Positions 576-60,005 of a stretch of DNA of 64,000 nucleotides are shown here, piece after piece. The position numbers and the translations under genes are program-made. Below the pieces are notes generated by a model that was not told where the DNA came from, did not search any database, and saw nothing but the letters and a program-made list of their open reading frames with translations. Source of the stretch: Marsupella aquatica (taxonomy: Eukaryota; Plantae; Marchantiophyta); assembly GCA_973895155.1 (NCBI GenBank), contig OZ316894.1, forward strand, positions 14,934,699 to 14,998,698, given 5' to 3'. Each line of letters starts with the position of its first letter. Position 1 is the first letter of the stretch.

Positions 576-2976
576 GCCCAAAATTTGAATATGCCAAGAC
601 TATCGGAAGCTCAATGACACCACTCAAAAAGACCATTACCCGCTTCCGTACACGGATATGGTTCTTGACATGGTAGCTCGAAATGAGGTATACACCTTCC
701 TGGACGGGTACTCGGGGTATAACCAGATTTGGATCCAACTATCAGACCAACTCAGAACCACCTTCATAATGGAGTGGGGAACCTACGCGTTCAGAAGGAT
801 GCCCTTCGGCCTATGCAATGCCCCCGCTATGTTCCAACGAATCATTATGAATATTTTTCATGACTTCTTACGAGAATTCTTAGAGGTGTTCATAGATGAT
901 TTTGCCATCTTCAGAACAATTGCTCAGCACCTAGAACACTTAAGGCGGACTTTTGAGCGATGCAGGGAAGTAGGTTTGAAGCTTCACTCGGGTAAATGCT
1001 TCTTTGGGGTAACGGAAGGAGTACTGTTGGGACACCAAGTATCCAAATGAGGGATTGAGGTGGACCAAGAGAAGGTGGTTGCGTGGATGAACTAGAAGGC
1101 GTTGCGATCCTTCTTAGGCTGTGTGGGGTACTACCGACGATTCATTCAGGATTTTGCCAAAATAGCCCTACCCCTCACAGAAATGATGAAACAAGACGCA
1201 ATCATAAAAATGACTCCCCGCCAAGTAGCAGCCTTTGACGAACTAAAAAAACGTCTAACTATGGCTCCTATCTTGACTACCCCCAACTGGAATAAGGAGT
1301 TTCACGTGTACGTTGACATATCTAGGTTTTGCATTGGGTCAGTCTTGAGCCAACTAGACGACGAGAAACAAGACCACCTCATCTACTATGCGAGCCAACA
1401 ACTGTTTGCGGCGGAGAGGAATTATTCGCCCATGGATCAGGAGGCCTTGGGGATTATCTACTCCTGTAAGAAGTTTTGCCATATCTATTGGGATATAAGG
1501 TAATTTTCCATACGGACCATGATAGCCTGAAATACATGGTAAACAAAACAGACTTGACGGGGAGAATAGCCCATTGGGTCTTACTACTCCAAGAATTCAA
1601 CTACAAAATCCGAGTGCAGCCTGGAAAATCACACGTGAATGCAGACTTCTTCTCAAGGATTGAGGGGGGGTTAGATGACGCACCCATTGATGATGCATTT
1701 CCAGACGAAGAGTTATTCCACGTCGGGATGGATCATCCAATGTGGTACGGGGACCTAATCACTTTTCTCTTAACTGGCCACATTCCAAGTAACATTAACT
1801 AGAAGGCCCACGTCAGTCTTCCTGCGTAAGGCATCACCTTACATGATGATACGCGGACATCTGCATAAGGAGGGCGTCGATGAGAAGATCCGCAGATGCC
1901 TAGAGTATAACGAAATGATAATCGTCATGCAAGCTATGCACGAGGAGGAAGCAGGGGGACACTTTGCCCTAGTAACCACGTCTCACAAAATCTTGGACGC
2001 GGGTTACTGGTGGCCTATGCTTCATCACGACGTAGCCCATTTTGTCCGAGGTTGCGACTTATGTCAACGGACGGGCAAACCATGCAGATTGGGTAATCAC
2101 CCTCTTACCCCTATCTTCCCTCTGGCCCCATTTGAGAAGTGGGGCATTGATTATATCGGGCCATTCACCCCCATAACCCGAGGTCGGCATTGCCAGTACA
2201 TTCTTCTCGCTATCGACTATTCAACTAAGTGGGTGGAGGCCCAAGCAACGGTCAAAGATGACGTAGCCACCACCGCCAGTTCCTGTACGAACAGATCTTC
2301 ACCCGTTTCAGACCCCCCTTGGAATTAGTCAGCAACCGCGGGACTCGTTTCCTGAACAAGACAGTAAAAAAACTGACTAACCGTTACCTCGTCAAACACA
2401 AGAAGACTACCCCTTATCACCCCAAATGTAACGGGCTAGTAGAGCGGGCTAATGGTATAGTGGGAAAAATCCTTAACAAGACAGTCGCCGCTCACAAAAC
2501 TCTTTGCAGCGGTCTATTCATACAATCTAGCGTTTAAAACCACTACAAACCATAGTCCATATATTTTGGTCTTTGGACAACATGCGCTCGTTCCCGTCAA
2601 GTTTGAGGTCGAGACTCCACGGGTAAGCATCCACCACAGGTTAACAAAGGATGCTAGCTCGTCCGATCGAGCGTATAAGATTGACAGTCTACAAGAAAAG
2701 AGACTGTGGGCATCGTGACTCGTGGCTGCAAAGCAGGAAGCAACGAAGAAACAACACGACAAAGGACTACGGCAGGTGGACGTCGCTATAGGAGATCTCA
2801 TCCTTCTATACGATAGTAGGTACATGTACTTTCTAGGAAAGCTGCACACACGTTGGCTGGGACCTTTCATTGTCCAACAGATGTACCCGAATGGATCCTT
2901 GCAGCTATCAATGTACGCCGACAACCTCTTTCTTAACCGAGTCAGTTATGATCATGTGAAAAAGTACTTTCACTAG
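573..2976 (+). pseudogene. pol: Ty3/Gypsy (non-chromovirus) pol remnant: RT, RNase H, integrase; 5'-truncated, with stops and frameshifts
   Basis: Motifs CQDYRKLN, FLDGYSGYNQI, MPFGLCNAP, FIDD, FLGCVGYYRRFI, HTDHDSLKY, GGHF...CDLCQ, WGIDYIGP, YHPKCNGLVER and WLGPF occur in RT-RH-INT order. Confidence 0.95.
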
Positions 2977-3017: not shown

Positions 3018-3030
3018 GAGTAGGGAGCTA
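3018..3030 (+). promoter_or_regulatory. Degenerate polypurine tract
   Basis: GAGTAGGGAGCTA lies between the integrase stop (2976) and the LTR start TGTGACAC (3031). Confidence 0.5.
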
Positions 3031-4750
3031 TGTGACACTGGTAACGTGTCACTAAACAGGATGCAAGTCATAGATTAGGATATATACAGTCATTAGGACC
3101 GTAGCCGCAGGATAGAGTAGTACGAATAGCTGTCTTTGCAATTATGAATAGACTAGGAATAGGTTAGTCAACTTAATGAGTAGGAATTACGGGTGAGTTA
3201 TTTTGATTGCCTGCAGTACGGTGGCGGCGGCGGAGTAAAAATCTGTTTGGGGGATCACGCTTGGACCGAGACGTCCAGACTTGAGCCATTAACAACGACT
3301 AACGGCCTTGCATTCTCACGCTCGAGCTTGCCTTGGCACCACCATAAGAGCCCAGTCGATGGCGTTGCAGCCCATTTGCTCTTTCGCACCTTTCAGGATT
3401 AGTGGGCACTGCCGGTCGCTCTTGCACTTTGCTTGGATCGAGTGCTCTTCAGGTTCCGACGAACGAGTTAGTCCACATCTGGAGCAACGCTCTCGTAAGC
3501 GAGCAAGGAATACATCAGGTCCAAAACCAACTGCGTGGATTAACTCCGCCCTCGTACCCGTTCCTGCCCCGGCCAACCCGCCGCCCAATAACCAGTCCTG
3601 ATGGCCCTCTGACCACCGACAGCCGGACCTGTTGCAGGTAATCGGCGTCCCCAAAGTAGTTTGGAATGCCATCAAGAAACCAGACCACGCGGGCTACCTT
3701 AAGGAGCATCTTTTGGAGCAGTTCGCTCATTTGCTATGGAGGCCTAGCGCAGCCGGGCCAAAGGAGGTTTATGAGTTCATCTCCAACTTCGACATTGATG
3801 CGGCGGCCACCAAGGTTTCAGGGCAGACCCTATCGCTTACGGAGTATTGGTTGGCACATATCTTTTGTCTGCCAATCGGGCTTGTGTCGGTTGAACTCCA
3901 AATTGGGGATAAGGAGTATACACCTCGGCACTTCAAACCCGAGGGTAAGACAAACAACGGGTATAAGCAGGGGTCATGCACCAACTTAGTCTGTATGGAG
4001 CGGCTTAACTTCATACGGACTACCTTACACATGATCAAGCCACGATCCGAGATCTCCCTCTGTACGATTGTGCAGGTGGAGCAGTACAAACGGCGGAACT
4101 GGGCCCAATTCTTTTGCCGCAGGTTCTTGGGGGAGACTTGTTTTTATCTCAGTAGGAGAATCTGTGAGGCAAAGGGAGTCCCGACCTGAGGAAGATAAGA
4201 GAGCACTAAGGAGTGAGAGCTAGAGTTGAGCTTGCTGGGCAAGTGCGAGGCAGGGCCTCGTAGAGACTAGGCATCGACTGCCGTTAGGCCTGCTGATCAC
4301 TTAGAAGTTGAGTCAACTATGTAAGCTGGCCCCTCTTATCTGAGTAAAATGGTCTTTTCCCTCTGATCTCTCGCGAGTAACTGGTGTTGTATGCATGCCT
4401 TGCCTCGCAAAGGCGCCATTTTAAGGGACGCACAGGGTGCAGACTAATGGTTGGGATTGTTGAAGAAGTGCATGTTGCAAAGTTTTAAGTTGCGTCAATG
4501 GTTTGAAAGTCCCCAAACCGGGAGTTAGTCCGAGTCACTAACTATGGGAGTCTTCCAGTGGTGGAAATAAAAAATACCTATGATATCAGTGATTGTCGTG
4601 TAATATTATACCAGTACGTATATTGTTATAGTCCGATTCGGACTAACCAGGGCCACAACACACCTCCTTGCCCAAAACCTCACCCCTACTGGTGGTCATG
4701 CGCGCACCGAGGAACTAACTCGGATTAAGGCCCGGGTTAGAGGCGCGACA
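3031..4750 (+). mobile_element. 3' LTR (copy D) of the Gypsy element; ORF-bearing, internally deleted
   Basis: Starts TGTGACACTG and ends GGATTAAGGCCCGGGTTAGAGGCGCGACA. Segment 4129-4750 aligns by eye with the R/U5 part of solo LTR B (GGGAGTCCCGACCT, CCTCC(T/C)TGCCC.AA.CCTCA, TTAAGGCC...GACA). Confidence 0.8.
3308..4128 (+). pseudogene. LTR-embedded accessory ORF (copy D), PF20167/Athila-ORF1-like core; C-terminus deleted
   Basis: ORFs 3308-3601 and 3632-4189 are in the same frame, separated by one TGA. EVYEFISNFD...TKVSGQTLSLTEYWLAHIFCLP...NNGYKQGSC aligns with the ORFs at 21916-23217 and 19491-20268. Confidence 0.75.
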
Positions 4751-14258: not shown

Positions 14259-17200
14259 AAGATGTCAACCGATGGAGTTGACTAGTTGCCAAATCCTTGT
14301 ATTACTTATTCACCATAACTCTTAACTTCCTTAATGTATTTTCTTGTATCAATTAAACATTATATGACTTCAATTTACTTGATTTCTGGTACACCTTTTG
14401 CTTGCTATCCAGCCTTTCCGACAATTAGATAGTGACAACTTGTGCGATTACTCAAGACAATGATCCAACTTTCCTTAGCCACAGACCTTGCCTGTCACCT
14501 GAATTGAAGGTCAAGTTCTATTTACCCTTCAACTAATGTTTCTTCAAAGAGGATTTCACTGCTCATTGTGGTAGGTTCCTCAATTATTAAATCTTCTTCT
14601 TCTATAATTTTCATCCAACTTTCAATTATATGTTTGCATTCACTTGGTGCATTCTGTAGACCAAATGGAATGCATTCAAATTTAAACGACCAATCAAAGG
14701 TAGTTACTTCCATATTCTACTACTTTGGGTCCCTCTTTTACCACATTTCTTATCAATTACTCTTAATTCTAATCTTATAGGGATTTTCTTAAGAGTTTAC
14801 AATCTCAATTTCCACATGCCATACAATTCTTATTTTCCCTTTAACAGGTTCCAACCAAATCCAAATGAATGTTCCATTGTCAAATATCAGTATTTCCAAC
14901 CATCTTCTTTTTACAATTAGCTTCTTAACTTTAACTCTACTGATATACAATAGATACAAGCTATGTAATCGAATACTCCCTGTAGTTCTGCCAGTATGTC
15001 TTGATTGCATCTTTCATTCCATGAACACATCAATTTCTTTACATGGTTGTTCTTCCATGGGCTCCTATCTCTCTACCTTCAGGTCTAGCAAAATCAGCAC
15101 TACCTCTTCCCGGGCTGCCTCTTTAGCTTCCTGATCTTGAAAGTTTCTAAAACAAAAGACCCTATTCACTCCTACTCTGCTACCCTATATCCCTCATACA
15201 TACAGGTTTTTCTTAACTTCTCCTAACTATCAGTAGTTGTAACTGCCAAACTGCTTATTCGGTTTCTGTACCTGTTTTATTCCACTAAAGCTATTGGTTA
15301 ATGGTTATTTGTTCTGCTTGTCTAATAGAACGAGTAATTCTTAACTATTATTTGTTACTTGATAATGCATCTCCGGTTTGGTGGTTCTTCAGTTAATCAT
15401 CCTCTTGATTAATCAGTCAAGATTGATTTCATCCTTTGTTTCCACCGCTCCAAGGTTAAGCGCTTGAATGGCAACCTCCACTTGTTCTACTCTTGTTTCT
15501 CTGGCTTTCCTCTGTTCGGCGGAGCGTTGGGTTGGTTCTCATCTTCTAGAACCCCAATATCTGTTTAGTTTTCTTGCTTCTGTTCACCACAATTCTCACT
15601 GCCCAATATTCATTCATGACGCAAAAACAATCTCTTTCTTGTGTGCTAACTTGCATATGAAACTCATGCCCAATGATTCCAAACAATTGGCAACCTGCTT
15701 CTTCCCACACTTGATAAACAACAATGTTGATTTGCACAAAGAAATTATACTTATATTTTCCTGAACCTACTGGTCGACAAAAATGATTCACTCAATTCCG
15801 CATCACCAATTCTACATTCTGGGTTTCTTTGTTCAGTCTAACTCTGGGAGCACTGGGCCCTAAGGCACACAACTTTCCATCTTCTAATGGGATATCGCAT
15901 CCCTCATAAACTAAGTCGCTACCATACATGCCCCAAATTGCTACAATCATTATTCCAACCAAGCAGATGACTCGAGATTGATCCATCTCTATAAAACTGC
16001 CACTTGACCAAAACTGAACCTTGATTGAATAAAATGAAACTCTGGTCATATTTTTAGGGTTTTTAAATAGTAATTGCCCTAATGACTCAACCTCTACTTC
16101 ATTGTAACTTGATAATTAACCTCAAAATTTCACTAATCTAAATTGCTCAAATCCTGCCATTTCATCATGCCTAGGCCCTCAGATCTCATCGCCGCCCGGG
16201 GCTCCCGATCAGCCAAACCCGGATCGGGCCATAACTCACGCCCCAAGCGTCCGTTGCCCATGGAGTCAACTCCATTGGCCTTGGGCCCAAGAGGAGATCT
16301 CACTCAAGTCCTCAGAACTCAAAGTTTGTCCAAGGGTCTGGATGGTCGACCTTGAGCCCAGCCCCTTTCCCCTTGACCTGACCAGCTGTGGTGCGTCCCA
16401 TGGCTCCCTAAACCCAAGAAACCCCCCTGCACAAGCCGATTCCTGTAGGTTTCGCGGCTTAGCGGCATGGGACGCTGCTATCTCTCTTCTACTAACATTT
16501 TACACACATATACTGGACAGATCGTTCATTGGGTCATGAGATACGTAGCCGACCTATTCTATGCCTTCCCTTATATTCCTCTCCTTATCTTCTTCAGGTA
16601 TGTTTGGATTCCGCCGCCGGAATGATCCCCAACTAGCTTGGGTTAGCCACTAAGACCTCTCTCAGCTTGACACATCCAACTCTTACTACCTTGCTTACTT
16701 CCTTCTCTCTTGGTTGATGTGGGCAATCTTCAAACAAGTTAATGCGACACACAAATAGCAAAATGACTCCTTCTGATTGAGTTATACCATGCACTTGCCA
16801 TACAAACAGTACTTCTCATACACAAGATTTGCAAACTAAGCCGTGAGGCCAACTCTATTCATCTCTTAGACATGAGGAAACATGAATATACACAAGGGTC
16901 ACTGTATAACTAACCGAGAGTTTCTTTTAACTACTTGATCCCAGCCCTGCTGGTGCACTAAAAACTTGCTAAAGAAGAAGGCCCTGAACTCCTCGCTGCC
17001 CAGGTACTTATCCTGGCAGTGGATCGATCCGCCTAATTCCTTGCAGCGTAAGCCTAATCTATCCTAACTGTAATCTACCTATGTACAGTGAGGCAAGAGC
17101 ACAAGTGTTGCTTTTACCAGTAGATCTGCAATCCCACTAATCTAAGTGTCAGGGCCACCTCCTGGTCCTAATCCTAATTCTAAACTTGGAGATTTGAGCC

Positions 17201-20200
17201 CGCCCTACCCACTCACGCCTCCTACCTCCACGTCCGCCCTTTTTAAAAGGGACGGTGCCCTTACACCGTCACGACACCAGTGGCTAGTCCTCAATGGACG
17301 CCCCCGATCCTTCCTCGGTAGTCAATGTGGGCCTTCCGTTCTCGGACAGGTTATCCGCTCCTGACCTGGTCAACCCTTTTTTGGCGTGTCCGAGCCCCAC
17401 CACTACCTCGGCCTCAACTTCCTTGGCTTATGCTTTCCAGGCTTCCACCAACCTGGCTTCAGCCTGCCCGACTTCTATCTGTGGGGGTCCCACCCCTGCG
17501 GCTCCTATTTTCTCCTTCCCGGCATCGGCTACCTTGCCGTAGTGGTCCTCCTCATAGGCTTGTTCTATGAGGCGGGTTGTCTCGTCCTCCCAAGGTTGTG
17601 GTTGATGCCAATCAATGGCTGGCAACCTTGGGCCGGTGCCTGTCATGGCCTCCCCCAACCGGTCTTCTTGGCCTACCTCTCGAACTGCTTCCTTGACGGC
17701 TACAACCTTGCATAAGGCTGGTGCCATGCTCTCTACCTCAGCCACAGTGGCCTGGCAAACGGTGTGGCTCCCTGACCCAGAAGGCTCTTGCTTTTTGTCC
17801 TTCCCCACCCAAACAGCTGGTGCCTTCCCTTGCTGCTTTCTTCCGGCAAGGGTGAGGGTACCATGGCTTGTCGCTTGGTTAGTACCACGCCCTGCGACTC
17901 TATTGCCGCTATCGGGGGTCCACTTGTTGCGGCCAGCCGATTTAGCTCCTTGGACTGCTTCTTCAACCGCTCAGTTTGGTTGTCCGCCCGCCTCTGCAGA
18001 TTCTCTATCCTCTGGTTGGCTTCCTCTAGGTCCACGAGGGCTTCGTCTAAATCCCCACGAGCTTGCTCCAACTCTGCTAGGTTGTCGTCCAACTCCTTCT
18101 GTAAGGCCGCCCTCTCCTCCTGGGTTGCCCTTAGGTCTGTGTTGATCTTATGGACAACATCAAACTTGATTTTATTCATTTTGTCGTAGGTTTGATCGAG
18201 CATGTCATTCTTCTTCCGCAGTTTGGCTTGAAAGTTGGCCGACAGGTCCTCCAGGTCTCCCTTCAACTTGTCGATGCCCCTGTAGGTCTCATCAAGTTTG
18301 GCTTGTTTTTTATGAAGGGCCTTGCGGCATTCTTCAATCTCATCCTTCAGTGCCTGCTCCTTCCTATGGGCCTCGGTCATGGCTTTGTTGCAGGCCGTTA
18401 TGTGAGTTGCTTCTGCCTCCTTCTGTTCCCGCTTCCACTTCTCCTTCTCCTTGAGGGCTCCGGCCAAGTCTTCCTGAGTCTGGGCTAGTTGCCCCTGCAT
18501 GATACTTATTTCATGCTTCCTAACTCGTAGCTTGTCCTGGGCCTGCTTGGCCACCCTTAACTCTCCGGCCTTGGCTTCCTTCTCCCTTAGCCGTCGGATG
18601 ACTTCCTCCTTCTTCATCCTCTCCAAGGCTAGTGCGTCCGTCAATCGGCTTTTCTCCAACATCTCCTTATGGACGAAAGGCCCTGTCTCCAATTCTGCCC
18701 CAAAGATATCGAGGGCGAGTAGCCCGCACATCCTCCCATACTCCAGGGCTTTGGAACGTGCATAGGTAGAGTGGTTAGGAGATGTCGGCATCTCCCAACG
18801 TGGCCTTACCGTCCAAGCCGCCCTTCTTATCTCCTCAACCATGGGCAAGGGCACGACTTGAACCCTTGCCAATTGTTGAATGTTCTCCGGCCATCCACCG
18901 CCTGGCAAGTCCTTCTCCTTGACCAGGGTTGCTTCCTCTAGGTCCATGAATCGCTGTTGCGACTCTTGATCGGCCTGTTGTCTTTCGTCAAACATTGGTG
19001 GAGGTACGTTTGGTGGGGGAGACTTTGGGCTCCCCTGCTATTGTGGATCCCCCTGCACCACCCTTGGTAGTCTGGGAATAAAACGGCCGCAGGTCCGCAC
19101 TCCTGGTACCGAGCAATCCAACCCGTAACCCAAGTCCTTGTGGTATTCCTCCTCGTAATCCCCATCCTCCGGGCGTCCTGGTGCCTGTCGGTCCTCTCTA
19201 GGACTAGCCATAAACCCGACCTCCTGCCAGGGATTATACCGGCGTGTGGCTTGCTCTTCTGGCTTACGTACCTGACTTCCGCACTCCTTTTCGGGATTGG
19301 GAACCCTGGGTCCTAACTCCTCTGAGTCACTAGAGGCTCCCACATACCTCCGCACCCCCGGCTCGTGTTCCGGCCTCCTTCTTTCTTTGGCTCTGGTAAA
19401 GGGGTTTTCCCTTGTCATTTTTCTGGTGCCCGTTGTTGCTACCTTTGGTACTAGAGCCGCCTTCTCCTTGGTCAGTACATGCAAGAGGCTCTACATGGCC
19501 GGTTGTTGCATTGGCCCAGCTTTTGGCACCTGTTGGAAGACCTGAGCTATCATGGGACTGCCTGGTGGGTTGGGCTGCTTTGCTGCCGCTCTCGGGTCTG
19601 ATTCCTCTTCTGGCGCTCTAGCCTGCAGGGGAAGAATTGGGGCAAAGATTTGACTTTGGGCATACCGGCATAACAACAGCATGTGATAACCAAGCCAAGA
19701 TACGCTTCCTTGGCTAGTCACAAGGTGTTCCTCCTTTAATATCTTTCTGAGTTGGTTGAGGAGGTACCCATTGTAATCCTGACTTGGGTCTGGCCTCTCT
19801 GCCAGGTAAACCTGTGCTTTGCCAAACTCCGGCCTTGGCCAGTTGCAATGCATCGTTACCCGGAAGAAATCAATCATTTCTCCAATATGCGGGTTGGTGC
19901 AGGTGCTCCTGAGGAAGCCATTTTTCAATGACGGTCCGGGGATTTGATCTAAACTCCTTGTCTGGCAAGTTCTTCCGGGTTTCTACCTTAGCTTTGTTGC
20001 CCTTGGGCAAGCCAAACACTCCGGCAATCACGTTGGAGGTGAGAAAGAAGTCCCTCCCATAGATCTTTGTGGAGCTGGTCTCGTGGTCCCATGATCCCAC
20101 GAATTCCAGTAAGTCCAATTTTGGCACCTCCTTCTTCAGCCATGACAATCTTACAAAGCTCTCCAAGCCTGATCCGACCATGAAGCCCTGGTACTTCTTG

Positions 20201-21378
20201 GTCTGCATGGCCATAAAGCATGCATCCTCCTCTTGTGCAAAATGTAGTTGTATCGCCAGTGGTATCATTGTCGCCCATCCCTTCTAGGTGTTGTCTTGGG
20301 TAGGGACGACATTGACTAGGTTGACTTCTTGTTCCTCGGGTTCCTTCTCCCTTTGCTTCCCTTGTTCGGCTGGCTTCCTTGATACTGCCAACCTCGTCCT
20401 CTTGGCCGGTGTGTTTTCTTCATTGTTGGTCATCTTCCTCCTAATTTTAGCGGCACCTGAAGATTCTCCCAATACTGTTGTCACGTCGTCAGCCTAGGCC
20501 TTAACCTGGGCTTCGGCTTAGACAGGCACATCCTTCGTCAAAATGAGGGTTCGGGCAGGGAGGGAGGCACGGAATGCACCTAACTCACGTAAACTAGCGC
20601 TAAGTGCGCCTATTGTCATATACAAATACCTCTTAGGTATGGTTTGTGTTCCGCCGCCGAAACGTACCTCAGTCAATAGCAGGATCGACCCTGGCTTACA
20701 GGCTTCTAAGCCTTCGTGTTTTCCGCCTTTGATCCGGATTTGATGGTATGGGTACTCAACCCGGGTTCGCAACCACTTACCCGCAAGCTGCACCCCGTGC
20801 ATGACTAGGGTAGTGCGTTCGGCCAAGCATTGCCACCTATACACGAGATTCACACATATACATACGCACAAGCATACAATCTCAATTTACACGAAGGAAA
20901 TAATGGGAAAGGATTTTACTACATAGGAGATATATGCGTACACTTAGTTGACCCGAAAGCTCTGGAATGAACAGGTCCAAGGCCGAGGGTGTACACTACA
21001 ATGGAGCCCGGCTCCGCACTCGCCCAACGAGCTTAGTCCTACACCCTCCCCTTGGTACTCTTTCACTCCCAGAGGTCGGGACTCCCCGCACATACCGCGG
21101 ATGTCCAACACTGAGACTAAAAATCCCCCCCTTGCCTCTACCGAGGGGTGCACTAAATACTAAGGGCCGAGGAATGGAGTGCCCTCGCGCCCGAAGATTC
21201 GCTAACTAAGGTCCTAACTAAGCTGGCTGTCAGGCCGGAAAATAGCTCGTCTTATTACAAGATCCTAATCTACGCAGGTTGGATAGCATGGCAGTGCTAC
21301 TATAACTAGGGTAGGTGCTTGTCCCTATAGCCTGATTTAGCTATTCCTAACTCTGACTATTTTAATCCTACTCCGCCG

Positions 21379-23987
21379 CTAATGCCTGGCATGCTTGCCA
21401 AAGCCGCCTGAGTGGGAGTGACTATCCCGCTGCCTTCTGAGTCTGTCGACGTCCTGCTTGAGTAGCTGGACCTGGTCCAGTAGAGATTTGTTCTCCCGCT
21501 TCGCCGCGTCCACCTCTTCCGCGGCCTCCTGGCATGCCTCCTCCAGTTGCTGGGTGTTGCTTGTCAACTTATCCACCAACTGGGCCTGTTTCATGACTTC
21601 TCCTTGAAGCCGCGCCACCTCTGCCTTCAGGGTGTCAATCTTGGCTGTGTCCCGTTGAGATCTAGAGTCAGCTTCCTCCAGATCCTTTTGCCAACTGATG
21701 GTTTGTCCCTTCAAACCGTCAATCTTGGTCCGGAGCCATGCGATCTTGGCGTCCTTTCTGAGCCTGGCCTGTTATGCTAAAGCTGCTTGGGCCCTAGCCT
21801 CGGCAACCTGGTCCTCCGTGGCCGTTACCTGAGGCCGTAGTTGCTAGAGTTCAACCTCCAGGGTTGCCACTTTGTCCTTCAGGTAGGCAGACTCAACCCG
21901 ATATCGCTCTATTCTCTACGCTGTCTCTGTCTGCGCATGTCCTGCCCTTATAGCCGCAACCAACTCCTGGTTGAAGAAGTAGGCCACCCTCCAAGCCATG
22001 TATTCCCTGGTGTCCCGAGAGATTTGTTGCGAGAAATCTCCCAACAACCCGTTCAGAAATGTGCCCGACGCAAAGAGTTCCGGATGGTCTAGACTGTGTC
22101 CATCTGGATTCGGGCACGGGCAGACTCCAACCCGTGCGGGAGTAGGAGTGGACACATCCAGCCCTTGAGGTAAGTCGGTCGAAGGGGCTGGTTCCACTGG
22201 AGGTGGGCGGTTCTCCTGCACAACCGCGGGGGGTGGCGGAATCTCCTCGGCTACCGTGGCATCTGCTTTGGGTATGGCTTCATCAGGCCTGGCTTTGATT
22301 GCATTGTCCCGATTGATTGCGTCTAAGGTCGCAATAATGTCAATGGGTATGCCTGGCGAGGCGGCAGCGGTGGGTTGCGGGGCCGGGGTAGCAGGGCTTG
22401 CAGTTGCCAAACTTTGGGCCTCGGGCTGCGGTCGCCTCACTTGGGCTGGGAACACCCATTTTGATGGGGTTAGCTCGGGCTCGTTGATACGCGGGAGGCT
22501 CCGGCGGTCGAAACGAGCGTACCACTCAATGATGATTTCGATGTGGCTAGTGAAGTACGCCCTTCCGCCAAGGTACAAAGTCTTTCTTCTCTGCTCCATC
22601 TCCTCGTGGAACTTCTTGACGAAGAAGGACGCCCACTTCCTGGGCCAATAGTTCTCCACCTGGATGACTTGAGCGGCCGATATTTCTCCTCTGGGTTCCA
22701 TCATGTGGAGGGCATACCGCTGGAACTCCAGACGTTCTGCTACCTCCGGGATGAGGCACGTCCTCATTAAGAACCCATTGTCCACTACCCCCTCGGTCGG
22801 GAAGCTAGAGGACTGGTATTTAGCTCCCTTGCCCCTAGGAGCCCGCGACTCTACTCGGTTTATCCCCTCGGGTAAACTGAAAATCATCTTTAGACGTGCC
22901 TCATTGAGACACATCACTCTCCCGTGCGCTCGGGTTTGTTGACGGGCCTCGTCAAAGTTTTGAATGAACTCCGACATATCCTGTCCGTAGTACCTACTTG
23001 AGTTCCAAGGGAGAGAGGCGAGGTGCTCAAACCCTTGGGTCTTCAGATAGCATGCATGCTTGGGGTGGAGGATGTTCTTGTGAACATTGTCCCCCATGCG
23101 ATGCATGGTCAGCTTGGCTACCGCAACCGTGGCCAAAGGCAACCCGAATATGGCTGCGAGCTCCTTCCTCTTCCTACCCCAAGACTGATTCCCGGGGTGA
23201 CTAGAAGAGGGGGACACCTCTCCTTCCTCTCGGTCAGGTGGTGGTAGCGCGACTGCCGTGAGTATTGGTGTCGGGGCCGCTAGAGTTACCGTGTTATCCC
23301 CTTGGGCTTGCTGGAGTGGTGCTGGGTTGTTCGGCGCTTGTTGAGTCGTACCCCGCGGCCGTTGATTCAGAGGAGGGTGAGCCTCCTCGTCTTCAGAGCA
23401 ATATTTATCACATTCACCATGGATCGTACTCGGAGAGGTGGTGGAACCGGTGGTGGGGACCGGCTCGGCTGAGGCCGAGGAGTTGTAGGTGCGGGTACGG
23501 ACACGGGTTGGCCGGCACTGGTCGTTGATGGTAGAGTTGCCATGAAGTTCTGCAAGTGCCGGTGGAGGTTTTCCGAAGCAAGTGAAGACGGCCTTGTCGA
23601 CCGGGTAGTATTGAACTCGCTGTTGATGAGAGCCCGGACCCGAGCGCGGATGTGGTCAAAGTGGTGCCGCTGCAAGTCGATCGTGCCCGGGATATTGAAG
23701 ATCTCATTTGGAAGCCGAAGCAATGCCTCCCAGAAGCCAATGTATTTGCCTCCATCGAAGAAGTACCCTGATACTTCTTCGGGTCGGTAAAGCTCGCTCT
23801 GGGATGGGTAATCAAAGTTAAGGAGATAGTGGTGTCGTCCTGCTAGGCGGATGGCTCTCTCGTATTTGCGTTCAATCTTGTATCGGTGCGGGTTGGCATG
23901 TTTCAATGAGTCGGCCAAGTGCCCTCCGATAGATAGGAACTGAGTCCAGAATCATATGGCCAAACTGGAAAGGATCGTGTGCGACAT
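21379..23987 (-). pseudogene. LTR-embedded accessory ORF (copy B), about 870 codons: unknown N-domain, PF20167-like core, Pro-rich linker, coiled coil
   Basis: ATG at 23987 (MSHTILSSLAI*FW). ORF pieces 23367-23918, 21916-23217 and 21379-21714 are collinear, and the first two read as one frame in the homologous copy at 62898. Confidence 0.85.
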
Positions 23988-24084
23988 TCAGAGGAGATAG
24001 TAGGTGACTAAGGAAAAGCGAGAGAGCCGGGGTCGAAGCTGGCGCGTGGACTGAAGAACTGGTGCATTGCAAAGGATCGGCCCC

Positions 24085-24093
24085 TTTTTATAC
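24085..24093 (-). promoter_or_regulatory. TATA box upstream of the LTR-embedded ORF
   Basis: GGTATAAAAAGGGG lies ~100 bp upstream of the ATG and is conserved as GGTATAAAAGGGG at 62788-62800 in copy E. Confidence 0.6.
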
Positions 24094-27000
24094 CCTGAGA
24101 GCTCGTCGATCGCCCGATGCCTCCTCGTCGCTTATAGGCCGAGCCTTTCACGCTCGTAGTGTACCGGCCCCTTCGCCGGTCCGGGTAAGCTTGTGTCAGT
24201 GACCGCCTCCTAAGTTCGTTATACGGACCCGAGGGAGGGGGAAAGGGGGTCCATTACACGCTCGCAACCCGGGCGTGCAAATGGTGACCCGCCGCCAGCC
24301 CGAACATGAATTCCCCTTATTGACTAATGATTTCCTACTCATAATGGCTACCTAAATATTGTCGTTATGCTAATAATAATGGCCTAAGATACCCCTAACG
24401 TGTGTGCTAAGTGCGGTTAGACCAAATCACTCATTACCTGCCATTCCAGCGGTGTCACAATTGTTGCTTTCGTCCATGCCGTTGTGCAACCCTTTAGGTC
24501 CCAATGTTCGTCATTGCAGTTGTTGAGGGCTTGCCGGATGCCGACGATTCGGTTGTCTTGAATTAGAAGGTTGTCAAGCTCGTCGCTAGTAGGTGTCCAC
24601 AGGAATTCAGCCTTGATGAGTTCTCCTCCTAAGAAGGTCGTCTTCTGTTGCCATAGCCAAGCAAGTTCTTGTTGCTCGCGGGCTGCTCTTTCTGATTCTT
24701 CTTCTTCGTAAGTCCCGACGTACTCACTTGCCCGTTCAAACGGGCATCCCCAAAAATGTGCTGCTTGATTGGTGTTGCTCATTCCCTTCTCTGGCCGTGC
24801 TTGGTAGCTGCTTATGTCCCTCCCGTGTTCTCCTCTGTAGCTGACAGTTGTTGGCTTCTGCTTGCACTTTGCTTGCTCGAGGTGTGAATGTGAGCCGTCC
24901 TTCCTAGTTTGGCTTGCCTTACCCCCCTGCTTGGTCGATCTGCCCGTTGGTTACCCATACCCGCCGGCACTTAGTTTGCCCTAACCCTAATCGTGTTCCC
25001 TGTCGTGGCATCCTTACTTCTGGCCTCGGCTTGGGTTCCATAGTCACCCTTAATTGTTTATATTTTCCTTGTTTTTGTTACTATACTAATGTGTTTTGAA
25101 GGTATTCTCCTGGTTTTACCATTTAAATAGCCTAGTGATTCTTGGCTAGGCATCACACCAACCCACAACTAGTCTAAGTCCTTAGTGTTAGTCATTGGCT
25201 TTGCGCCTTGCCTTCGCCAGTGCCACACTCCACTGCCCACAAGTCTCCCCATGCTATGTCCTCCCTAGATGGCCTATCCGGGCGTGGACCATAAGGGAGC
25301 TCGGTGTCGGAGTCAGGGACACCGGAGCTAAGTGTTAAGGTAGTTGAGTTCCGTGACTGTCCAAGTGCTTGTTGGCAAGAATGGAGCACTCTACCCACCG
25401 AGTAGAGATGAAATGCACGGTTTCAGTGAAATGCTCCATCAAGCCAGCATAGTCATTGAAATGCTCCAAACCTGTTTCCACGTATTTTCCATCAAGAAAT
25501 TGGTTTGTGAGGTACATAGCTTGTCAACAAGCCCTCCACGGCACAAGAACCCTCGAACCATCTTCTCCTCCGCACCAAGCGGGAGGAAACAACAATGCAC
25601 ATTTGCAAAAACTTCCGCACCATAGCTGAACACTTTTCCTCCCACCGTTCAACTTCTCTACACTGAGGACCTTGGATGTCTTCACTCGGGAATGGTGGCT
25701 ATAGTGAGCCTCCCGCCTATAGTTCAGTCTATCCCCCGCTAATCTGTGGACTTAACGTCGTTCTTCCCGATAAACTTATGGTATGCTATTCATGACGACG
25801 TATCTTCAGATATGTCATTCCCAACGCCTTAGAAACTTAAGAACGTTGTCCCATAGTACGTCATCAATAACGTCATCTGGGGCCAGACAAGTAACCATGT
25901 CTAGTAAGACGTAATATGAGGTACATTGTACAATGCAAGGTTAATTACCGTGCCTTAAATGACGTAAATTTAATGTCACACAAAGCGACATTATCTGCTC
26001 CCGTCGGATCTCCGGACGACATCCGACTGCCGTCTGGAGATTAACGAGGTCTTGTCCAACGTTAATCCAAGGAAAGTCATTTTGGGTTAGGTTAAACCTG
26101 GTCCCGACATGCAAAAATGCAGTTGTGTGCATGGCAGAAAACATTCTAGGGTTATATATGCCAAAGAGTGGATTGATATGCACCATAGGCAGTGGTTTTG
26201 TTCTGGTCATAGGTGTTTTATCACTTGGGCTGATTGAGGCCACATTTTGGTGCTCTCTACTTTGGTGATCCTAGTAGGGTCCTGGCCGTGATTGGGTCTG
26301 GGTCTTGGATCTTTTGGTCTGGTGGTTACTTCTGTGCCCTCGTGGATTCTCCCTGGATCCGGGTTGTGGGTCTGCTGGGCTCTTGGGGTGCCTTGGGCCC
26401 TCGGGGGCTTCTTTTGTTGTGTCACTATGAGCCGTATGCCCCTGCGTTGTGGTGCAAGGAGGGCCGGCCCATAGGGAGTCGGGCCAGGGCATTTTTGGGG
26501 CAGTAGGAAGCACATATGTGTCAAGGGTGCACATTTTCTCCATCAATGGTCAGGGAAAACAGCTAATTGAATCCAACGGTTATAGATCCTTCCTGCCCAT
26601 GACCGTTTTTGTATTGGGACGGAGTTAAAAAAAGACGGGATCCCTTATTACAGTTGTAGATGATTTGGACTGGCTGTTATTGGACTGATTGTCGCCCCCC
26701 CACCCCCTTCCGTGGGGTTTTCACAGTATTAAAACTTAAATAAAAAAATCCATTCAAGGAAATATTGGGATGATTAAATAGTGTCACTGGCAAGAAAATG
26801 AAGGCTCACTCATTAATTAGTACGTATAATACTATTTTTGGGTGATAATAATTACCTACATATACTAATTATTATTTTGTGTGATACTACTAAGTGTAAA
26901 AAGTGCAAAGATCTTGAGTTCTACGAAATCTAGGATAGTGTATTGACGGTAGAGGATAAATAAATGAGGTGAAAATAAATGCGGGAGACCCATTAAATTC

Positions 27001-44356: not shown

Positions 44357-44822
44357 TGTCACGCGATTGACATGGGTCTTAACACCAAAAACGTCACTAT
44401 GGGTGCCAAAAGCATCTCCTTGTACCTAAGGATCACGAAGGGATGTTGTGAAGGCCGGTAAACACCAGTTTATGCCCTTAACACCAGACTATCATAGCAA
44501 GACTCCGTCACACATCACCCAAGCTCAATCCCTAAGAACCAAGGTTGGGAATCAAATCCTGTGCTCATGATAGTTCTGGTGAGAAGGGGTCTTCATATCG
44601 GGCCCGTACACACAGGGCCTAGCGCTACGATGCGCATATGTCTATACGTATGCTTACTGTCATAGGTATATTTCTATTCTTCCGCCGGAATGTACCCATA
44701 AACCAGTGACTCCTGACTGATTCCCGGCTTAGGGACTTCTAAGCCATTGCCCCACCACTCTGCCATTCCACTCTCAGCAATCAGAGCTCTGATAGCCCTC
44801 ACCCAACCCACTTCAATGCACC

Positions 44823-45130
44823 GAGGTGTTTACAAAAGACAGCAAACAGGAAACAGGATTTAATAACAAAAACTGGTAGCAGGAAAATGGGTGGAATTTT
44901 AATTTTTTTTAGAAAAAATAAAAATAAAAATCGGTCGACCAGTTTTTTTGCTAGCGCCCAAAGCTAACCAAAAATGTTGCATTGTTAATTTTTTTTGGAA
45001 ATAACATGTTTTAGGAGACATTTTTAAATTGTCATTTTTCCTGGTAACAATGATTTTTTCCTGGTAACAGCACATTAAAAACAGGAAAAAAAATTCTTGT
45101 TTACCTATTTTCTGTCTCCGTCGCTATACC
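44823..45130. mobile_element. Non-autonomous DNA transposon (MITE) with 9-bp TSD (Mutator- or hAT-like)
   Basis: CAATGCACC at 44814-44822 and 45131-45139; imperfect TIRs (AGACAG.AAA.AGG.AAACA.GA); AT-rich interior. Confidence 0.7.
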
Positions 45131-46399
45131 CAATGCACCCGGTACACCTCTTAGTGGCGCTGCTAGTCCCATCATACACTCAGATTGCCTTACACACACA
45201 CACACACATCCATGAGGGAAATGAGGCCTGAGAGGAAAACTCAATTAGATTCAAAGATGTGCACAATAGTTCACGGAGAACACTTGATCAGAACAATAGG
45301 CCTGAAGGTTGTCTACTCCAGATTGCGACGTGCTTGCCATGCAAGCTCAATCGTGAACCTGAGCCCGGCTCACTCCAGATTGCAACGGAAAATTGGACTC
45401 GAACCAATCCCGTACTTGCCTTGCAAACTCAATCCTGAACTCAACCTCCTTCACTGCACTTCATTCTGGGTGGCACATACAGATCTCACACCTCCATTTC
45501 CGAATGTCAAGTTACGCATGCACAGTTGACTCAACTTCAAAGCTGGTACCAGGCCTAACGGCGATCTATCCCAGACTGCAATGAGGCCCGGCCTCACCCT
45601 TGCCCTGCAAGCTCCGCTCTGGCCATAGATCCCTTAGTGCTCTCCACCAGACAAAGGTCGGGACTCCCCATGGATCACGTAGCCTTGCCAGACTGAACTG
45701 TAAATGCTCCTTCTGCTGCCCCTCAATCAGTGTCTCAGCCTCCCTAATGTGCCCACCGCAAATTGAATTGAAATCTTCCCCACAGTTTACAATCACCAAC
45801 ACAGCACCTATCACCAAGGCTCTATATTGGGGGAAAAGAACCCAGTTGTGTTGCCCACTAGAAAGAGCCACAATCGAGCTTGTAAACCTGGCCAACTGTT
45901 GCTGTGAAGCGTGGCTGATTACTCCCTGAGTAATAGCACAACCCAGCTCTCCCCAGCACACAGCTTCCAAGCCCAGCCTTCCTTGCACAGAGCTCCTCTC
46001 TGCTGCTCGGTCTACGTGAGATCACACAACTGAAGTCCCCCCCTTGCCTCTATCGGGGGCTGCTCTATATACTCTCATATTGAGCCCAAATCGGTGGATA
46101 CTACGCTGTTGGAGCCCCATCCTAGCCCTAACAGAGCCGCCACTATCTCTAACTACTGAACCCTAACTCGCAACTTTATTTCTATCTCGAATTGGCTATG
46201 TACTTCGGATTTGGCCCTCCTCCATGGTTTTTGCAAGCTTGAGCCTCCTCTCCCGATTTCTCTATTCAACCATTTTTTGCGTGGATAGCAGCGTTGGAAG
46301 CGGCTTGAGCTCCTCTTTCCAACAAGGTCAATTATAGCCAATTTGGTCAAATACACCGAGAGTTATGCCCCCACAACCGAGAGAGGGTACTCATTGTTG

Positions 46400-46710
46400 C
46401 GCTAACCCGAGTTCGGCTAACCTAGCTATCCTATCTAACCCGGGTAGAGCTAACCCGTGGTCTCGGGTTAGGCCGCTACCCGCTATCCGCTAATCTAGGC
46501 TAAGCTGAGCCCGAACCCGAGCTTAGGTTAACCGAAGTTTAGTCTAACCCGGGCTCAATATAACCCGAACCCGGGTTAAGCCTAAGCTGAAGCCATGCTG
46601 ACCTAAGCTAAGCTGAAGCCGTGTTGACCTGAGCTAAGCTGAATCCGAGCTCTCATAAGCTAAGTCGTAGCCTCAGCTTAGGTTAACCCGAAACCGAATC
46701 CGCTCATTCC
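46400..46710. repeat. Degenerate TAACCCG/GCTAAG sub-repeat cluster within LTR C
   Basis: Many TAACCCG(A/G), CGGGTTA and GCTAAGCTGA motifs. Confidence 0.6.
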
Positions 46711-48147
46711 GGCCACAAGTTAACCTGTCACACTAATCAGGCCGTATCTTTCTTAATACACCTCTGTTTCTCAAGTGTTTTATATCGATTTTATTCGCCT
46801 TGACCAGATCTTTCCAATGCTCTTTACAGATCCGGATTTGGTGACATATTGAAAGAGATATGGTCGCCGACCACCCGCAACATAGCTTTTATTTCCCTAC
46901 TCAATGCCATGATTGCCCTTATTCTTGCCATCTTGCTAATTGTTATGCAATATCAATAGCTACTCCTTGCATACAGCAACCTACTTACTCAGATTATAGA
47001 ATAAGGACCATGTCATCGGCGTCACAACAATGAAGGAAGTGAGCTTGCTGGTGTATCGTGTGTCCATAATTGATCCATAATAATTCTCACATTTTGATAA
47101 TTTTTGCGTCGAAGCGATCCGCTTTTCTTCTCTTATCTTTCCCTTATATTCTTTGCCTTATGTACATAGTAGTGAGACATCCTTTGGCCCGGATAGCAAA
47201 TGAATGAGTGATAGATGAGACCTTAGTGAACAAGATCTCTTTGGAAACTTAGGGGTGGGGCATCCTTTGGCCTGAATAGCAAAGAAACAAGAGAGTCATT
47301 ACGAATCAAGGAGGGAGAGATATCCCTAATCGTCCCCTTCATAACCCATTTTTGGTTAGAGTCCATCTTTTAGACAAGTCATCCATGATGCAATATTTAA
47401 CCTATCACTTTGAAGTTTAATTTGCAGCTACTGTTATGAGTTCTAATGAGCCAATAGTATACCTAATAGTATCTTACCAAGAGGAGTGGGGGTGCATTAA
47501 TATCTTTGTCCTCTATTGAAGTCATGGATCTAAATAGGAGTCCAAAGGACATTCCTATTTCATTTTTTCTTGGAGATATTAGGATCATATGTCGTAAAAA
47601 AATTAGTTTTCAAGAGGTGTTGATCCGCAAGTATGGTGAAGTAAGATTTAATGTTATATTAGTTTAACCTTAACCTTTCTTAATACCCACTACCTTTCTT
47701 ACAAGAGTTATCATTTTGGTTTTAGTGTATAACTTATGGGCATGCAAGGTTGACTTCATAAGAGCCACCATGCTCTTACCAAAAAACACGATCACCTGGA
47801 TAGCGGGAGAGATGCTACCTCCTCCGAGAAAACACATGACTAACTAACTACCAATTGACATGATTGACCGCCTGCACACTGTCCTATTGACTATCAATGG
47901 CAGGGATCGCCGACCGTGTTGCTAACATCTAAATCCTATTGTTAGTTGTTTCTAGCGCGTTGATTACCATTTATCCTATGTTGGATGTCCCTAACTAATA
48001 GTTTGTCCTAATCTTGCCTATCGCGCCGCTAATTGGAGCCTAACAATAACTATTCTGTCACTACGATTAAGTCACAGGATACCCGTGTCCTACAGCTATC
48101 CTGCGCGGCTGCCGGACCGCACCCTCCTTAACTGCCCCTTGTGCGTG

Positions 48148-49091
48148 TCACGCCATTGGTCCAGGGTTGGTCCCCTTGCTAGTTTGGGTCCTTGAGCCGC
48201 CTTGGTCAGAGGTGATTCCTGCCCCACTCCGCTGGCTCACCAACAACGTAATCCGCTCTTGCAAGGCCTTGTTGTCCCGTGCTGCTTCCTCCGCCTCGTT
48301 AGAGACTTCATCTACCTCCATTTGGAGTTGGGCCACCTCCATGTTAAGCAGCAGGTCGATCATTTTAAGGTCGGCCTGGTTCTGGGCCAAACGCTTATCT
48401 CGATTGGCGGTGACCGTATTCACCTGCTGGGCAACCTGAACAAATTGGTTGTTTAGATTGGTCAGGATGTTAACCTGAGTCAAGGACTCCATTTCCAGCT
48501 AAGCACAGTAGCCTCCAGTCCCTTAAGATCCGCTTGAGCCTTAAGTAATTCTTGATTTAGTCCATCCCGTTGTTCAGAGACACGGACTAAGTCCTTGCGG
48601 CAAGCAATGGTTGCCTCCTCCAGTTGCTCCATAGTCATCTGGAGATCCCTGATCTCATTCTCCTTGGCCATAAGTTCATCCTCCAAGCGGGTTACAAGCC
48701 GTGGATGGTGATCCAACATGAAGAAGGCCGGTTGGAAGTAATGTGCAACCTGTTGCCCAATGTACGTTGCTAAGTCCCCGAATAGGTCCTGACTAAATTT
48801 CTAGACCAAATCGTGGGCCAAGGTCTCGGAAACTACTTGGTAGTCCTCCATTCTCTCCTCGGGCAAGGGTGCATCCACAGTCGGGGTGGCCACATCCTTT
48901 GTAGTCTGCACCAAGGAGGGAATGGGTTCCTTAGGTGGTGGTGGAATTGGGGGTGGCTGTGCCGAGGGCAGCGGGGGTTCAGGTGGTGGTGGAGATGGCC
49001 CATTGTTCACAATGGTGCTGAACAGAGTAGAGGGCGGGGGAGTAGGTTGCAACGTAGGGGGTTGGGGTTTACCCGAGCGGTGGTGGTTGGG
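48148..49091 (-). pseudogene. C-terminal part of the LTR-embedded accessory ORF (copy C): Pro-rich linker and coiled coil
   Basis: DLV*KFSQDLFGDLATYIGQQVAHYF matches B GLLGDFSQQISRDTREYMAWRVAYFF; EAEEAARDNKALQERITLL matches B EVDAAKRENKSLLDQVQLL. Confidence 0.75.
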
Positions 49092-59560: not shown

Positions 59561-60005
59561 TGTGACACCGCCAGCATGGCTGTAATCAGTAATTATACGG
59601 CTTAATCCATATTTAGCATGTACAAAGTAGACGTAGGAATCCAAAGTTATTAGCATAACAACACTAAATTAGTTATGTCATGACCATACGTAGCGTGCTA
59701 GACTATGTAGTGTGCTAGCGGAGTCCATACCTTAGATGGGCCGTAATGCCTAGTTAGGAGTCTGGTTCCATGGTAGAGGGTTAGAGGGGGTGCCCTGTTG
59801 AGGGTGACTCTTCTAGTAGGACCCGCCCTTAGGGTTGGAGGGTATAGTGTGGAGAGGCTCAAAGGACGGTTAGTTCTTTGAGTTGAGCCTTTGGCGTTGG
59901 GAGAGCCTTGGTAGTGAGTGGAGCTCCTTGGCTATGGTGTCCTGTTAGCTTCGACCTAGATTCTCCATTGTGGAGTGGGTTTGGCTTCACTGTGTGTGTT
60001 GTGAT
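59561..60005 (+). mobile_element. LTR fragment F related to the B/E family, no ORF seen (right end approximate)
   Basis: TGTGACACCGCCAGCATGGCTGTAATCAGT...TTATTAGCATAAC matches the starts of B and E. Confidence 0.65.

What the first reader, a model, noticed from the sequence alone, without database searches (positions are those of the whole stretch)
20479..24459. A ~4-kb solo LTR that carries a whole protein-coding gene inside U3
Seen: a 3981-bp TG...CA element with a 5-bp TSD (ACTGT/ATTGT) and no gag/pol. On the minus strand its order is LTR start, TATA box (~24090), a ~870-codon ORF (23987-21379), a second TATA-like/G-run block (~21160-21125), then ~650 bp of R/U5-like sequence. Four other diverged copies in the window (D, A, C, E) fit this layout. 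Established: plant Gypsy extra ORFs (Athila env-like, Ogre/Tat aORFs) normally lie between the LTRs, and LTR-internal genes are mainly a retroviral feature (MMTV sag, nef overlap). Inference: this lineage carries its accessory gene in both LTRs and leaves an expressible copy in every solo LTR. I do not recognise this as a described plant system, but I could not search the literature.
Basis: partly seen in the sequence, partly recalled or inferred. Interest (0 to 1): 0.88.

Follow-up and report, generated by a model that had tools for sequence, protein, structure and literature searches.

The report
Gene carried inside a retrotransposon's LTR
A 4-kb leftover end-repeat (solo LTR) of a plant jumping gene, likely from a liverwort, holds a long but now broken protein gene inside the repeat itself, where plant elements normally have none, and the protein's core is predicted to fold like a known transposon anti-silencing factor, so every such leftover would carry a switch against silencing.

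Summary
Anatomy confirmed; two claims corrected. 20479-24459 is a 3981-bp TG..CA unit with a 4/5 TSD and no terminal direct repeats. Public contigs show the empty site (3986 = 3981+5 skipped, 3 of 4 runs). In other copies its start is preceded by the same polypurine tract that, in window copy A, lies between a Gypsy integrase stop and TGTGACA, with the homologous ORF downstream. The ORF is therefore inside the LTR. It evolved under purifying selection (dN/dS 0.14 and 0.09 against copy D). Corrections: this copy is broken (4 premature stops, 1 frameshift), none of 5 ORF-bearing window copies is seen intact, and U3 rather than R/U5 is not shown. No full element, PBS or RNA was seen. New: 65 homologs, all 8 with an organism name from the liverwort Calypogeia fissa. 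The confidently predicted core best matches VANC21, a DNA-transposon anti-silencing protein (Z 7.7, next 2.5); a coiled coil follows. Likely mechanism (inferred): an LTR-borne, sequence-specific anti-silencing protein acting on its own LTRs. Ten literature searches gave no plant LTR-internal gene. New variant of a known kind.

The parts
20479..24459 (-). Solo LTR (copy B), 3981 bp, TGTGACA...CGTGACA, inserted in the ORF of related copy C
   Evidence: empty site; PPT before this start in other copies
20474..20478 (.). Left copy of the 5-bp target-site duplication (ACTGT)
   Evidence: joint with 5 ambiguous letters
24460..24464 (.). Right copy of the target-site duplication (ATTGT, one mismatch)
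24086..24092 (-). Upstream TATA box (TATAAAA), kept in copy D; likely promoter of the ORF
   Evidence: function inferred
21379..23987 (-). Broken accessory ORF, 870-codon span, 4 premature stops and 1 frameshift
23616..23987 (-). N-terminal helical domain (about 120 aa), shared with homologs, no clear known fold
   Evidence: dN/dS 0.14
22450..23109 (-). Core domain, predicted VANC(DUF1985)/PMD-like fold
   Evidence: pLDDT 92.5; VANC21 top hit; Atlas leads
21382..21915 (-). C-terminal coiled-coil region (contains two stops)
   Evidence: many generic coiled-coil Pfam hits, all shown ones below cut-off, for 21382-21771
21165..21378 (-). TAGGA-rich non-coding stretch after the ORF; candidate binding sites
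   Evidence: 4 copies vs 0.65 in shuffles, p 0.002, motif chosen after looking
21125..21159 (-). Second TATA-like box (TATTTAG) and G7 run; likely promoter of the genomic RNA
   Evidence: matches 46033-46073 where the box reads TATATAG; function inferred
20479..21124 (-). R/U5-like 3' part, conserved at DNA level with copies A and E, collinear with A to the terminal CA
589..2976 (+). Copy A: degenerate Gypsy pol (RT, RNase H, integrase; stop at 2974-2976), 5' part missing
3018..3030 (+). Copy A: polypurine tract GAGTAGGGAG plus CTA, directly before TGTGACA
3031..4750 (+). Copy A: 3' LTR (1720 bp) with the ORF core at 3602-4189, apparently internally deleted
62431..64000 (+). Copy D: LTR start, TATA and first 367 codons of the ORF (one stop), cut by the window end
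16600..25980 (-). Copy C (host of B): TGTGACA start at 25980, ORF from 24958 interrupted by B, core domain near 20240-19700, long coiled coil; 3' end not found
44506..49090 (-). Copy E fragments: ORF C-terminus 49090-48164, TATA/G-run block 46078-46033, 3' blocks; possibly two elements
59561..59678 (+).
   Evidence: score 28 vs shuffle max 15

Best explanation
This is a solo LTR of a non-chromovirus Gypsy family, likely from a leafy liverwort, with a long accessory gene lying downstream of the polypurine tract and so inside the LTR, and its product is predicted to be a VANC/PMD-like DNA-binding protein that would keep the family's own LTRs from being silenced. Shown: ends, TSD, empty site, PPT position, past purifying selection, breakage of this copy. 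Follows from reverse transcription: what lies between PPT and the terminal CA is copied into both LTRs, and LTR-LTR recombination leaves one gene copy per solo LTR. Inferred: the upstream TATA drives the gene and the mRNA ends at the LTR's own poly(A) site; the second TATA/G-run starts the genomic RNA, placing the gene in U3; the protein dimerises by its coiled coil and binds short motifs such as the TAGGA clusters in the LTR. Odds by step: gene inside the LTR 0.9; in U3 rather than R/U5 0.65; anti-silencing role about 0.55.
For: Empty site 3986 = 3981+5 in 3 of 4 runs. Loose ends behind 24459: in X1, 3 contigs (agreement 0.98) begin with the reverse complement of AGGGAGCTA, the sequence before copy A's LTR at 3022-3030; in X3 a mix of 4 contigs (0.58) begins with its first 7 letters. 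In copy A only 54 nt separate the integrase stop from TGTGACA, and the ORF core follows at 3602; B-A core tblastx E 8e-28 with no blastn match. dN/dS B vs D 0.14 (122 codons, p 1.3e-9) and 0.09 (70 codons, p 5.7e-12); shifted frames 1.05-3.1. 65 homologs at E<=1e-3; stop-free P0070 (906 aa) and P0077 (787 aa) have the same layout. Core model pLDDT 92.5; Foldseek top hit VANC21-DNA 9lnj_A, TM 0.49 vs <=0.17 for the other listed rows; VIA-align 9lnk_A Z 7.7, rmsd 4.4, 201 aligned, next Z 2.5, of 48,161 chains. Atlas leads to PMD (0.86) and DUF1985 (0.86) clusters. Passages: VANC binds short motifs in non-coding TE DNA and causes demethylation (PMC5735166); its DUF domain resembles PMD and VANC21 is predicted to dimerise by a coiled coil (10.1101/2024.04.02.587720; 10.1101/2024.09.27.615353).
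Against: No full element with two 4-kb LTRs was seen (no genome), and the PBS side was not tested. PPT loose ends are clear in 1 of 4 runs, partial in a second, and not in the shown rows of the other two; 26 rows were hidden. The VANC match is middling: Foldseek E 0.38, Z under 8, 8-10% identity, and both searches use one model. No PMD or DUF1985 Pfam hit in 3 window pieces or 35 homologs. Atlas scores are under 0.9. B is a pseudogene and none of 5 window copies is seen intact. The second TATA is weak in B (TATTTAG) and absent in A. The TAGGA motif was picked after looking and was not enriched in 5 of 9 segments. PMD-fold proteins have other roles, and direct DNA binding of MAIL1/MAIN was unproven in the passage read.
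Confidence: 0.55

Rival explanations
1. Same anatomy, but the gene lies in R or U5: the upstream TATA is the main LTR promoter, the genomic RNA begins with this ORF as in Ogre-like elements with a 5' extra ORF, and gag-pol is reached by splicing or from the second TATA.
For: TATAAAA at 24092 is the only TATAAA in the unit and is kept in D. The second box is TATTTAG in B and missing in A. TTTTTAGTCTCAG after the G run could be a splice acceptor (sequence).
Against: It needs a strong-stop DNA of about 3.6 kb (inference). The 650-bp block after the second box is the part that aligns between distant copies A, B and E (scores 51 and 70, shuffle max 18), while the 5' parts of A and B do not align; this fits R/U5 being the short 3' part (recalled pattern).
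Confidence: 0.3
2. The gene is inside the LTR, but its product does something other than anti-silencing, for example guiding integration into chromatin or into other family copies, or acting as a plain transcription activator.
For: Fold alone does not give function (note). B sits inside a related ORF and A abuts another Gypsy integrase. The N-terminal domain has no clear structural match (best Z 4.8).
Against: The only close solved fold is an anti-silencing protein bound to its own element's DNA, and related PMD proteins counter silencing. Nesting in TE-rich DNA needs no targeting.
Confidence: 0.3
3. The unit is a rearranged or non-autonomous element (TRIM/LARD-like, or a deletion product joining a 5' LTR start to an ordinary internal env-like ORF and a short 3' LTR), and the G run at 21131-21125 is its PPT.
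For: The G run is purine-rich and about 650 bp from the end; summed contig depth is higher over 20960-21263 than over the ORF in 3 of 4 runs (not a copy number).
Against: No terminal repeats. The G run is not followed by TG. A PPT precedes the ORF-side start in A and in B-family contigs. D has the same start-to-ORF layout from an independent insertion. Depth differences can come from sequence conservation.
Confidence: 0.07
4. The ORF is decayed captured DNA that never served the element.
For: All window copies seen are broken or partial.
Against: dN/dS 0.09-0.14; protein-level conservation without DNA similarity between A, B and C; stop-free homologs of 787 and 906 aa.
Confidence: 0.03

Closest known systems
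Ogre/Tat, Retand and Athila Gypsy elements with extra ORFs (PMD PF10536, Transposase_28 PF04195, Athila ORF-1 PF03078; PMC6317226 passages, PMC7264820 parts 1-2 of 3, PMC5418596 passages)
   Same: Non-chromovirus-type pol, LTRs of several kb (up to about 5 kb reported), 5-bp TSD, a sense accessory ORF with a likely PMD-like fold.
   Different: Those ORFs are described upstream of gag or between pol and the 3' LTR. Here only 54 nt separate the integrase stop from the LTR and the ORF lies after the PPT. No PMD, Transposase_28 or Athila ORF-1 hit; one weak Transposase_32 hit (E 0.006) in 1 of 35 homologs.
VANC21 of Arabidopsis VANDAL21 (Mutator-like DNA transposon; PDB 9LNJ/9LNK; PMC5735166 passages)
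   Same: Predicted core fold (Z 7.7, 201 aligned), a coiled coil, variable low-complexity linkers, clustered short motifs in nearby non-coding DNA.
   Different: 8-10% identity, no DUF1985 Pfam hit, encoded by a retrotransposon LTR in a likely liverwort, extra N-terminal domain; binding and demethylation untested.
Retrosat2/FRetro3/RIRE3 (rice; PMC3485330 passages)
   Same: LTRs over 3 kb, TGTCAC...GTGACA-type ends, an extra ORF, many solo LTRs.
   Different: ORF0 is described as upstream of gag-pol; the paper queries LTR, ORF0 and ORF1 as separate parts.
MMTV sag, and nef/bet overlapping U3 in retroviruses (recalled, not from a call)
   Same: A protein gene inside the LTR, duplicated at each round of reverse transcription.
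   Different: Vertebrate retroviruses with shorter genes of unrelated function; no relationship was tested or is implied.

Membership tests
Ty3/Gypsy solo LTR | TG...CA ends with a 4-6 bp TSD | tested here: met
   (4/5 match; empty site skips 3981+5)
Ty3/Gypsy solo LTR | No gag/pol and no terminal direct repeats within the unit | tested here: met
Ty3/Gypsy solo LTR | Same start preceded by a PPT in other copies | tested here: met
   X1 3 contigs, X3 partial; copy A
Ty3/Gypsy solo LTR | Same end followed by a PBS in other copies | not tested
Ty3/Gypsy solo LTR | Full element with two such LTRs around gag-pol | not testable with these tools
   no genome held
Ty3/Gypsy | pol order RT-RNase H-integrase | tested here: met
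   copy A; B's link to A is by ORF, PPT and 3' block, not by its own pol
TRIM/LARD | Terminal direct repeats flanking an internal part | tested here: not met
Athila/SIRE env-like (eORF-3'F) | ORF between pol and the PPT | tested here: not met
   54 nt from integrase stop to LTR in copy A
Athila/SIRE env-like (eORF-3'F) | Conserved transmembrane helix | tested here: not met
   19-residue hydropathy max 0.68-1.29 in 6 of 6 homologs; one 1.82 peak in B only (crude test)
Tat (OTA) | Additional RNase H | tested here: inconclusive
   no room for it between RH and INT or after INT in copy A; the part 5' of RT is missing; liverwort Tat Z2 lacks it anyway; no tree was built
Chromovirus | Chromodomain or CR motif after integrase | tested here: inconclusive
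   integrase tail of A ends after a GPF-type module by eye; the tail was not scanned with a profile
VANC (DUF1985)/PMD | Pfam DUF1985 or PMD above cut-off | tested here: not met
   0 of 3 window pieces, 0 of 35 homologs
VANC (DUF1985)/PMD | Shared core fold | tested here: met
   Z 7.7, rmsd 4.4, 201 of 220 aligned, next 2.5; TM 0.49; a predicted model and a middling score
VANC (DUF1985)/PMD | Sequence-specific binding to the element's own motifs and loss of silencing marks | not testable with these tools
   needs binding and methylome data
U3-encoded gene (MMTV sag type) | ORF upstream of the genomic RNA start site | not testable with these tools
   no RNA holder listed

The most novel reading that the evidence does not exclude
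A liverwort Gypsy lineage has moved a VANC-like anti-silencing gene, its promoter and its target motifs into U3. Each integration then deposits two copies, and each solo LTR left by host recombination remains a self-contained, self-activating gene that can shield the whole family in trans. Solo-LTR formation, the host's usual way of disarming an element, would not remove the element's counter-defence.
Probability: 0.35. Interest if true: 0.88.

Novelty: new variant of a known kind. Interest (0 to 1): 0.74.

Why it matters
The plant reviews read place extra ORFs between the LTRs. A gene of about 870 codons after the PPT breaks that pattern, and it means solo LTRs can be annotated as host genes (the named homologs are Calypogeia fissa 'unnamed protein products'). 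The function of Gypsy extra ORFs is an open question (PMC7264820). A VANC-like fold sitting beside candidate motifs in a 4-kb unit makes the anti-silencing idea directly testable, and would extend this fold to retrotransposons of a non-seed plant, bearing on whether it arose in retrotransposons or host genes (left open in PMC5418596).

Tried and rejected
No own genome. No RNA holder listed among 6 runs: no evidence either way. Word-based protein searches found nothing for the 579-aa piece or P0070 1-530. Two metagenome scans gave 0 confirmed loci of 71 and 592 pattern matches, so no outside genomic context was obtained. Sequence search of the PDB with the core alignment: best E 0.15. Viral fold library: no match at E<=0.001. 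N-terminal domain: model pLDDT 86.5, no Foldseek match, best Z 4.8 among ties; fold unassigned. The first dN/dS run had the N-terminal frame off by one and was redone. A bacterial promoter scan on 42 bp was irrelevant. A host LRR exon search gave 3 unnamed hits and no taxon. Earlier scan findings: none in 3 look-ups. Literature searches: searches gave 0 papers; others gave listings with no title or abstract start describing a plant LTR-internal gene; the one 'ORFs within the LTRs' phrase (PMC6673714) meant ORFs within whole elements. I considered 44357/44506-46732 as an ORF-less LTR supporting U3 and dropped it as evidence: no good TSD and no homology of its start to other copies. I rejected the G run as PPT because no TG follows it.
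Full report
Observation. The unit at 20479-24459 is 3981 bp. On the minus strand it starts TGTGACA and ends CGTGACA, with flanks ACTGT and ATTGT. No whole genome is held, so I used public runs: 5 of 6 listed runs hold part of the stretch, none on record as RNA. I laid 4 of them (X1-X4; two organism labels, two studies; X1 may be the window's own source). Between 7,176 and 11,600 contigs per run fell on 20200-24750 and all 30 bins were covered, which points to a high-copy family (depth is not a copy number). Contigs in X2, X3 and X4 join 20475 to 24462, skipping 3986 bases with 5 ambiguous letters: the unit plus one TSD. The host sequence C is itself repetitive, so these are uninterrupted C copies or the empty locus. 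A contig with no differences bridges the right junction in X1 and X3, so that junction is not an assembly artefact. There is no terminal direct repeat (score 22; shuffles mean 23.6, max 28), which rules out a TRIM/LARD layout.

The ORF. ATG 23987 to stop 21379 spans 870 codons, but with premature stops at 23954, 21918, 21846 and 21774 and a frameshift between 23655 and 23370. The lineage kept the protein under selection: B against D gives dN/dS 0.14 over 122 N-terminal codons (p 1.3e-9) and 0.09 over 70 core codons (p 5.7e-12), with shifted-frame controls of 1.05-3.1. A, B and C match as protein (B-A E 8e-28) with no blastn match in the ORF.

Is it inside the LTR? Copy A has RT, RNase H and integrase in Gypsy order, a stop at 2974-2976, GAGTAGGGAG-CTA at 3018-3030, TGTGACA at 3031, the ORF core at 3602-4189, and a 3' part collinear with B's down to CGCGACA at 4750. 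For B's own family I laid contigs on 24340-24500. Behind 24459, 3 contigs in X1 (agreement 0.98) begin with the reverse complement of AGGGAGCTA, the letters before A's LTR; in X3 a mix of 4 contigs (0.58) begins with the first 7 of these; the shown rows of X2 and X4 give other flanks, and 26 rows were hidden. Since the PPT defines the start of the 3' LTR (established), the ORF is in the LTR, and reverse transcription would copy it into both LTRs. I did not see a full element or test the PBS side.

U3 or R/U5? Not settled. TATAAAA at 24092 is the better box and is kept in D; the second box is TATTTAG in B and TATATAG in E's block. The DNA after the second box aligns among A, B and E (scores 51 and 70, shuffle max 18), while the 5' 700 bp of A and B do not. 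That, and the 3.6-kb strong-stop DNA the alternative needs, favour U3 at about 0.65 (inference).

Other copies. D agrees from base 1 (76%) and has one stop in 367 codons. A lacks the N-terminal domain, coiled coil and second TATA; its core runs straight into the G-run block. C has the core, a long coiled coil and the 3' motif, but its end was not found. E is fragments and may be two elements. A further LTR start, F, lies at 59561. None of 5 ORF-bearing copies is seen intact.

The protein. A profile of the window's core pieces found 65 proteins at E<=1e-3. I looked up 20 of the 65: 8 carry an organism name, all Calypogeia fissa, a leafy liverwort. The host taxon is inferred from this. P0070 (906 aa) and P0077 (787 aa) are stop-free and show the same order: N-terminal domain, linker, core, proline-rich linker, coiled coil; their genomic context is unknown. 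Pfam gives no family above cut-off in 3 window pieces or 35 of the 65 homologs; one homolog has a weak Transposase_32 hit. No conserved transmembrane stretch by a crude hydropathy test. The core model (50 sequences, pLDDT 92.5) matches VANC21 bound to DNA best: Foldseek TM 0.49, E 0.38, other listed rows 0.17 or less; VIA-align Z 7.7, rmsd 4.4, 201 aligned, next 2.5 among 48,161 chains. The score is middling, but it stands alone and covers the whole domain. Atlas leads, all under 0.9, point to PMD and DUF1985 clusters. The N-terminal domain has no clear match.

Mechanism. From passages read: VANC proteins bind short motifs clustered in non-coding parts of their own elements and cause loss of DNA methylation (PMC5735166); the VANC domain resembles PMD and VANC21 is predicted to dimerise through a coiled coil (10.1101/2024.04.02.587720; 10.1101/2024.09.27.615353). 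Here TAGGA is enriched in 4 of 9 non-coding LTR segments tested (after the ORF in B, C and E, and at A's 5' end; p 0.002-0.028, motif chosen after looking). I therefore propose a gene driven by the upstream TATA whose dimeric product binds its own family's LTR motifs and opposes silencing, so that solo LTRs with an intact frame could act in trans. Expression, binding and anti-silencing are inferred, not shown.

Comparison with what is known. Neumann et al. [quoted passage not shown] Vicient and Casacuberta (PMC7264820, parts 1-2 of 3) place such ORFs in the internal region. Retrosat2 ORF0 is upstream of gag-pol (PMC3485330, passages). Gypsy-encoded PMDs are reported from angiosperms (PMC5418596, passages). 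Passages of PMC13468544, PMC10508981, PMC12885004, PMC11728184, PMC11963269, PMC6673714 and PMC6431247 showed no LTR-internal gene. Ten searches of an open-access library found no such plant system; subscription papers, Steinbauerova 2011, the VANC21 structure paper and Repbase were not seen. MMTV sag as a retroviral precedent is recalled. The lineage of copy A was not placed on a tree; its RT and RNase H look Athila-like to me (recalled motifs).

Verdict. A real and unusual layout: known parts (Gypsy LTR, PMD/VANC-like accessory gene) in an arrangement I could not find described. New variant of a known kind, interest 0.74. It would reach about 0.88 if solo LTRs prove to be working anti-silencing genes (probability about 0.35).

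Noticed in passing
window 48657-57286: A 2.87-kb unit repeated three times in tandem at 99.8% identity, holding part of a LINE reverse-transcriptase ORF and a piece of copy E's ORF; recent duplication or assembly artefact. A 97%-identical LINE piece with CATTAC-repeat tail lies at 42615-43511.
   Followed up: no
window 4790-9760, minus strand: A second degenerate Gypsy (gag zinc knuckle, protease-like, RT, integrase). Its likely 5' LTR end near 9731 is followed by GGTGTCGGGTC and a hairpin instead of a TGG-type PBS, possibly self-priming.
   Followed up: no
window 4-560: CACTAGTAGAAA at the window start with short repeats behind it, like a CACTA transposon end (recalled motif); it truncates copy A's pol.
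   Followed up: no
window 31000-37100, plus strand: Multi-exon host gene for a leucine-rich-repeat protein; one exon has 3 unnamed homologs at 78-83% identity.
   Followed up: partly
window 46080-46732, minus strand: TGTGACA followed by 650 bp rich in CGGGTTA and AGCTTAG repeats, then the TATA/G-run block; may be an ORF-less LTR start of the same group, TSD not convincing.
   Followed up: partly
window 20646-20660, 4553-4566, 16606-16620, 44678-44691: A TTCC-N6-GGAA inverted motif with a following ATACCT is kept about 170-190 nt from the 3' end in B, A and E, and is present in C; role unknown.
   Followed up: partly
window 61778-62425, plus strand: 215-codon stop-free frame without Pfam match that ends 5 nt before copy D's start.
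   Followed up: no
window 41274-42182; 38630-38947; 40453-40983; 60871-61476: A Copia RT fragment, and tandem arrays of about 105, 120 and 90 bp.
   Followed up: no
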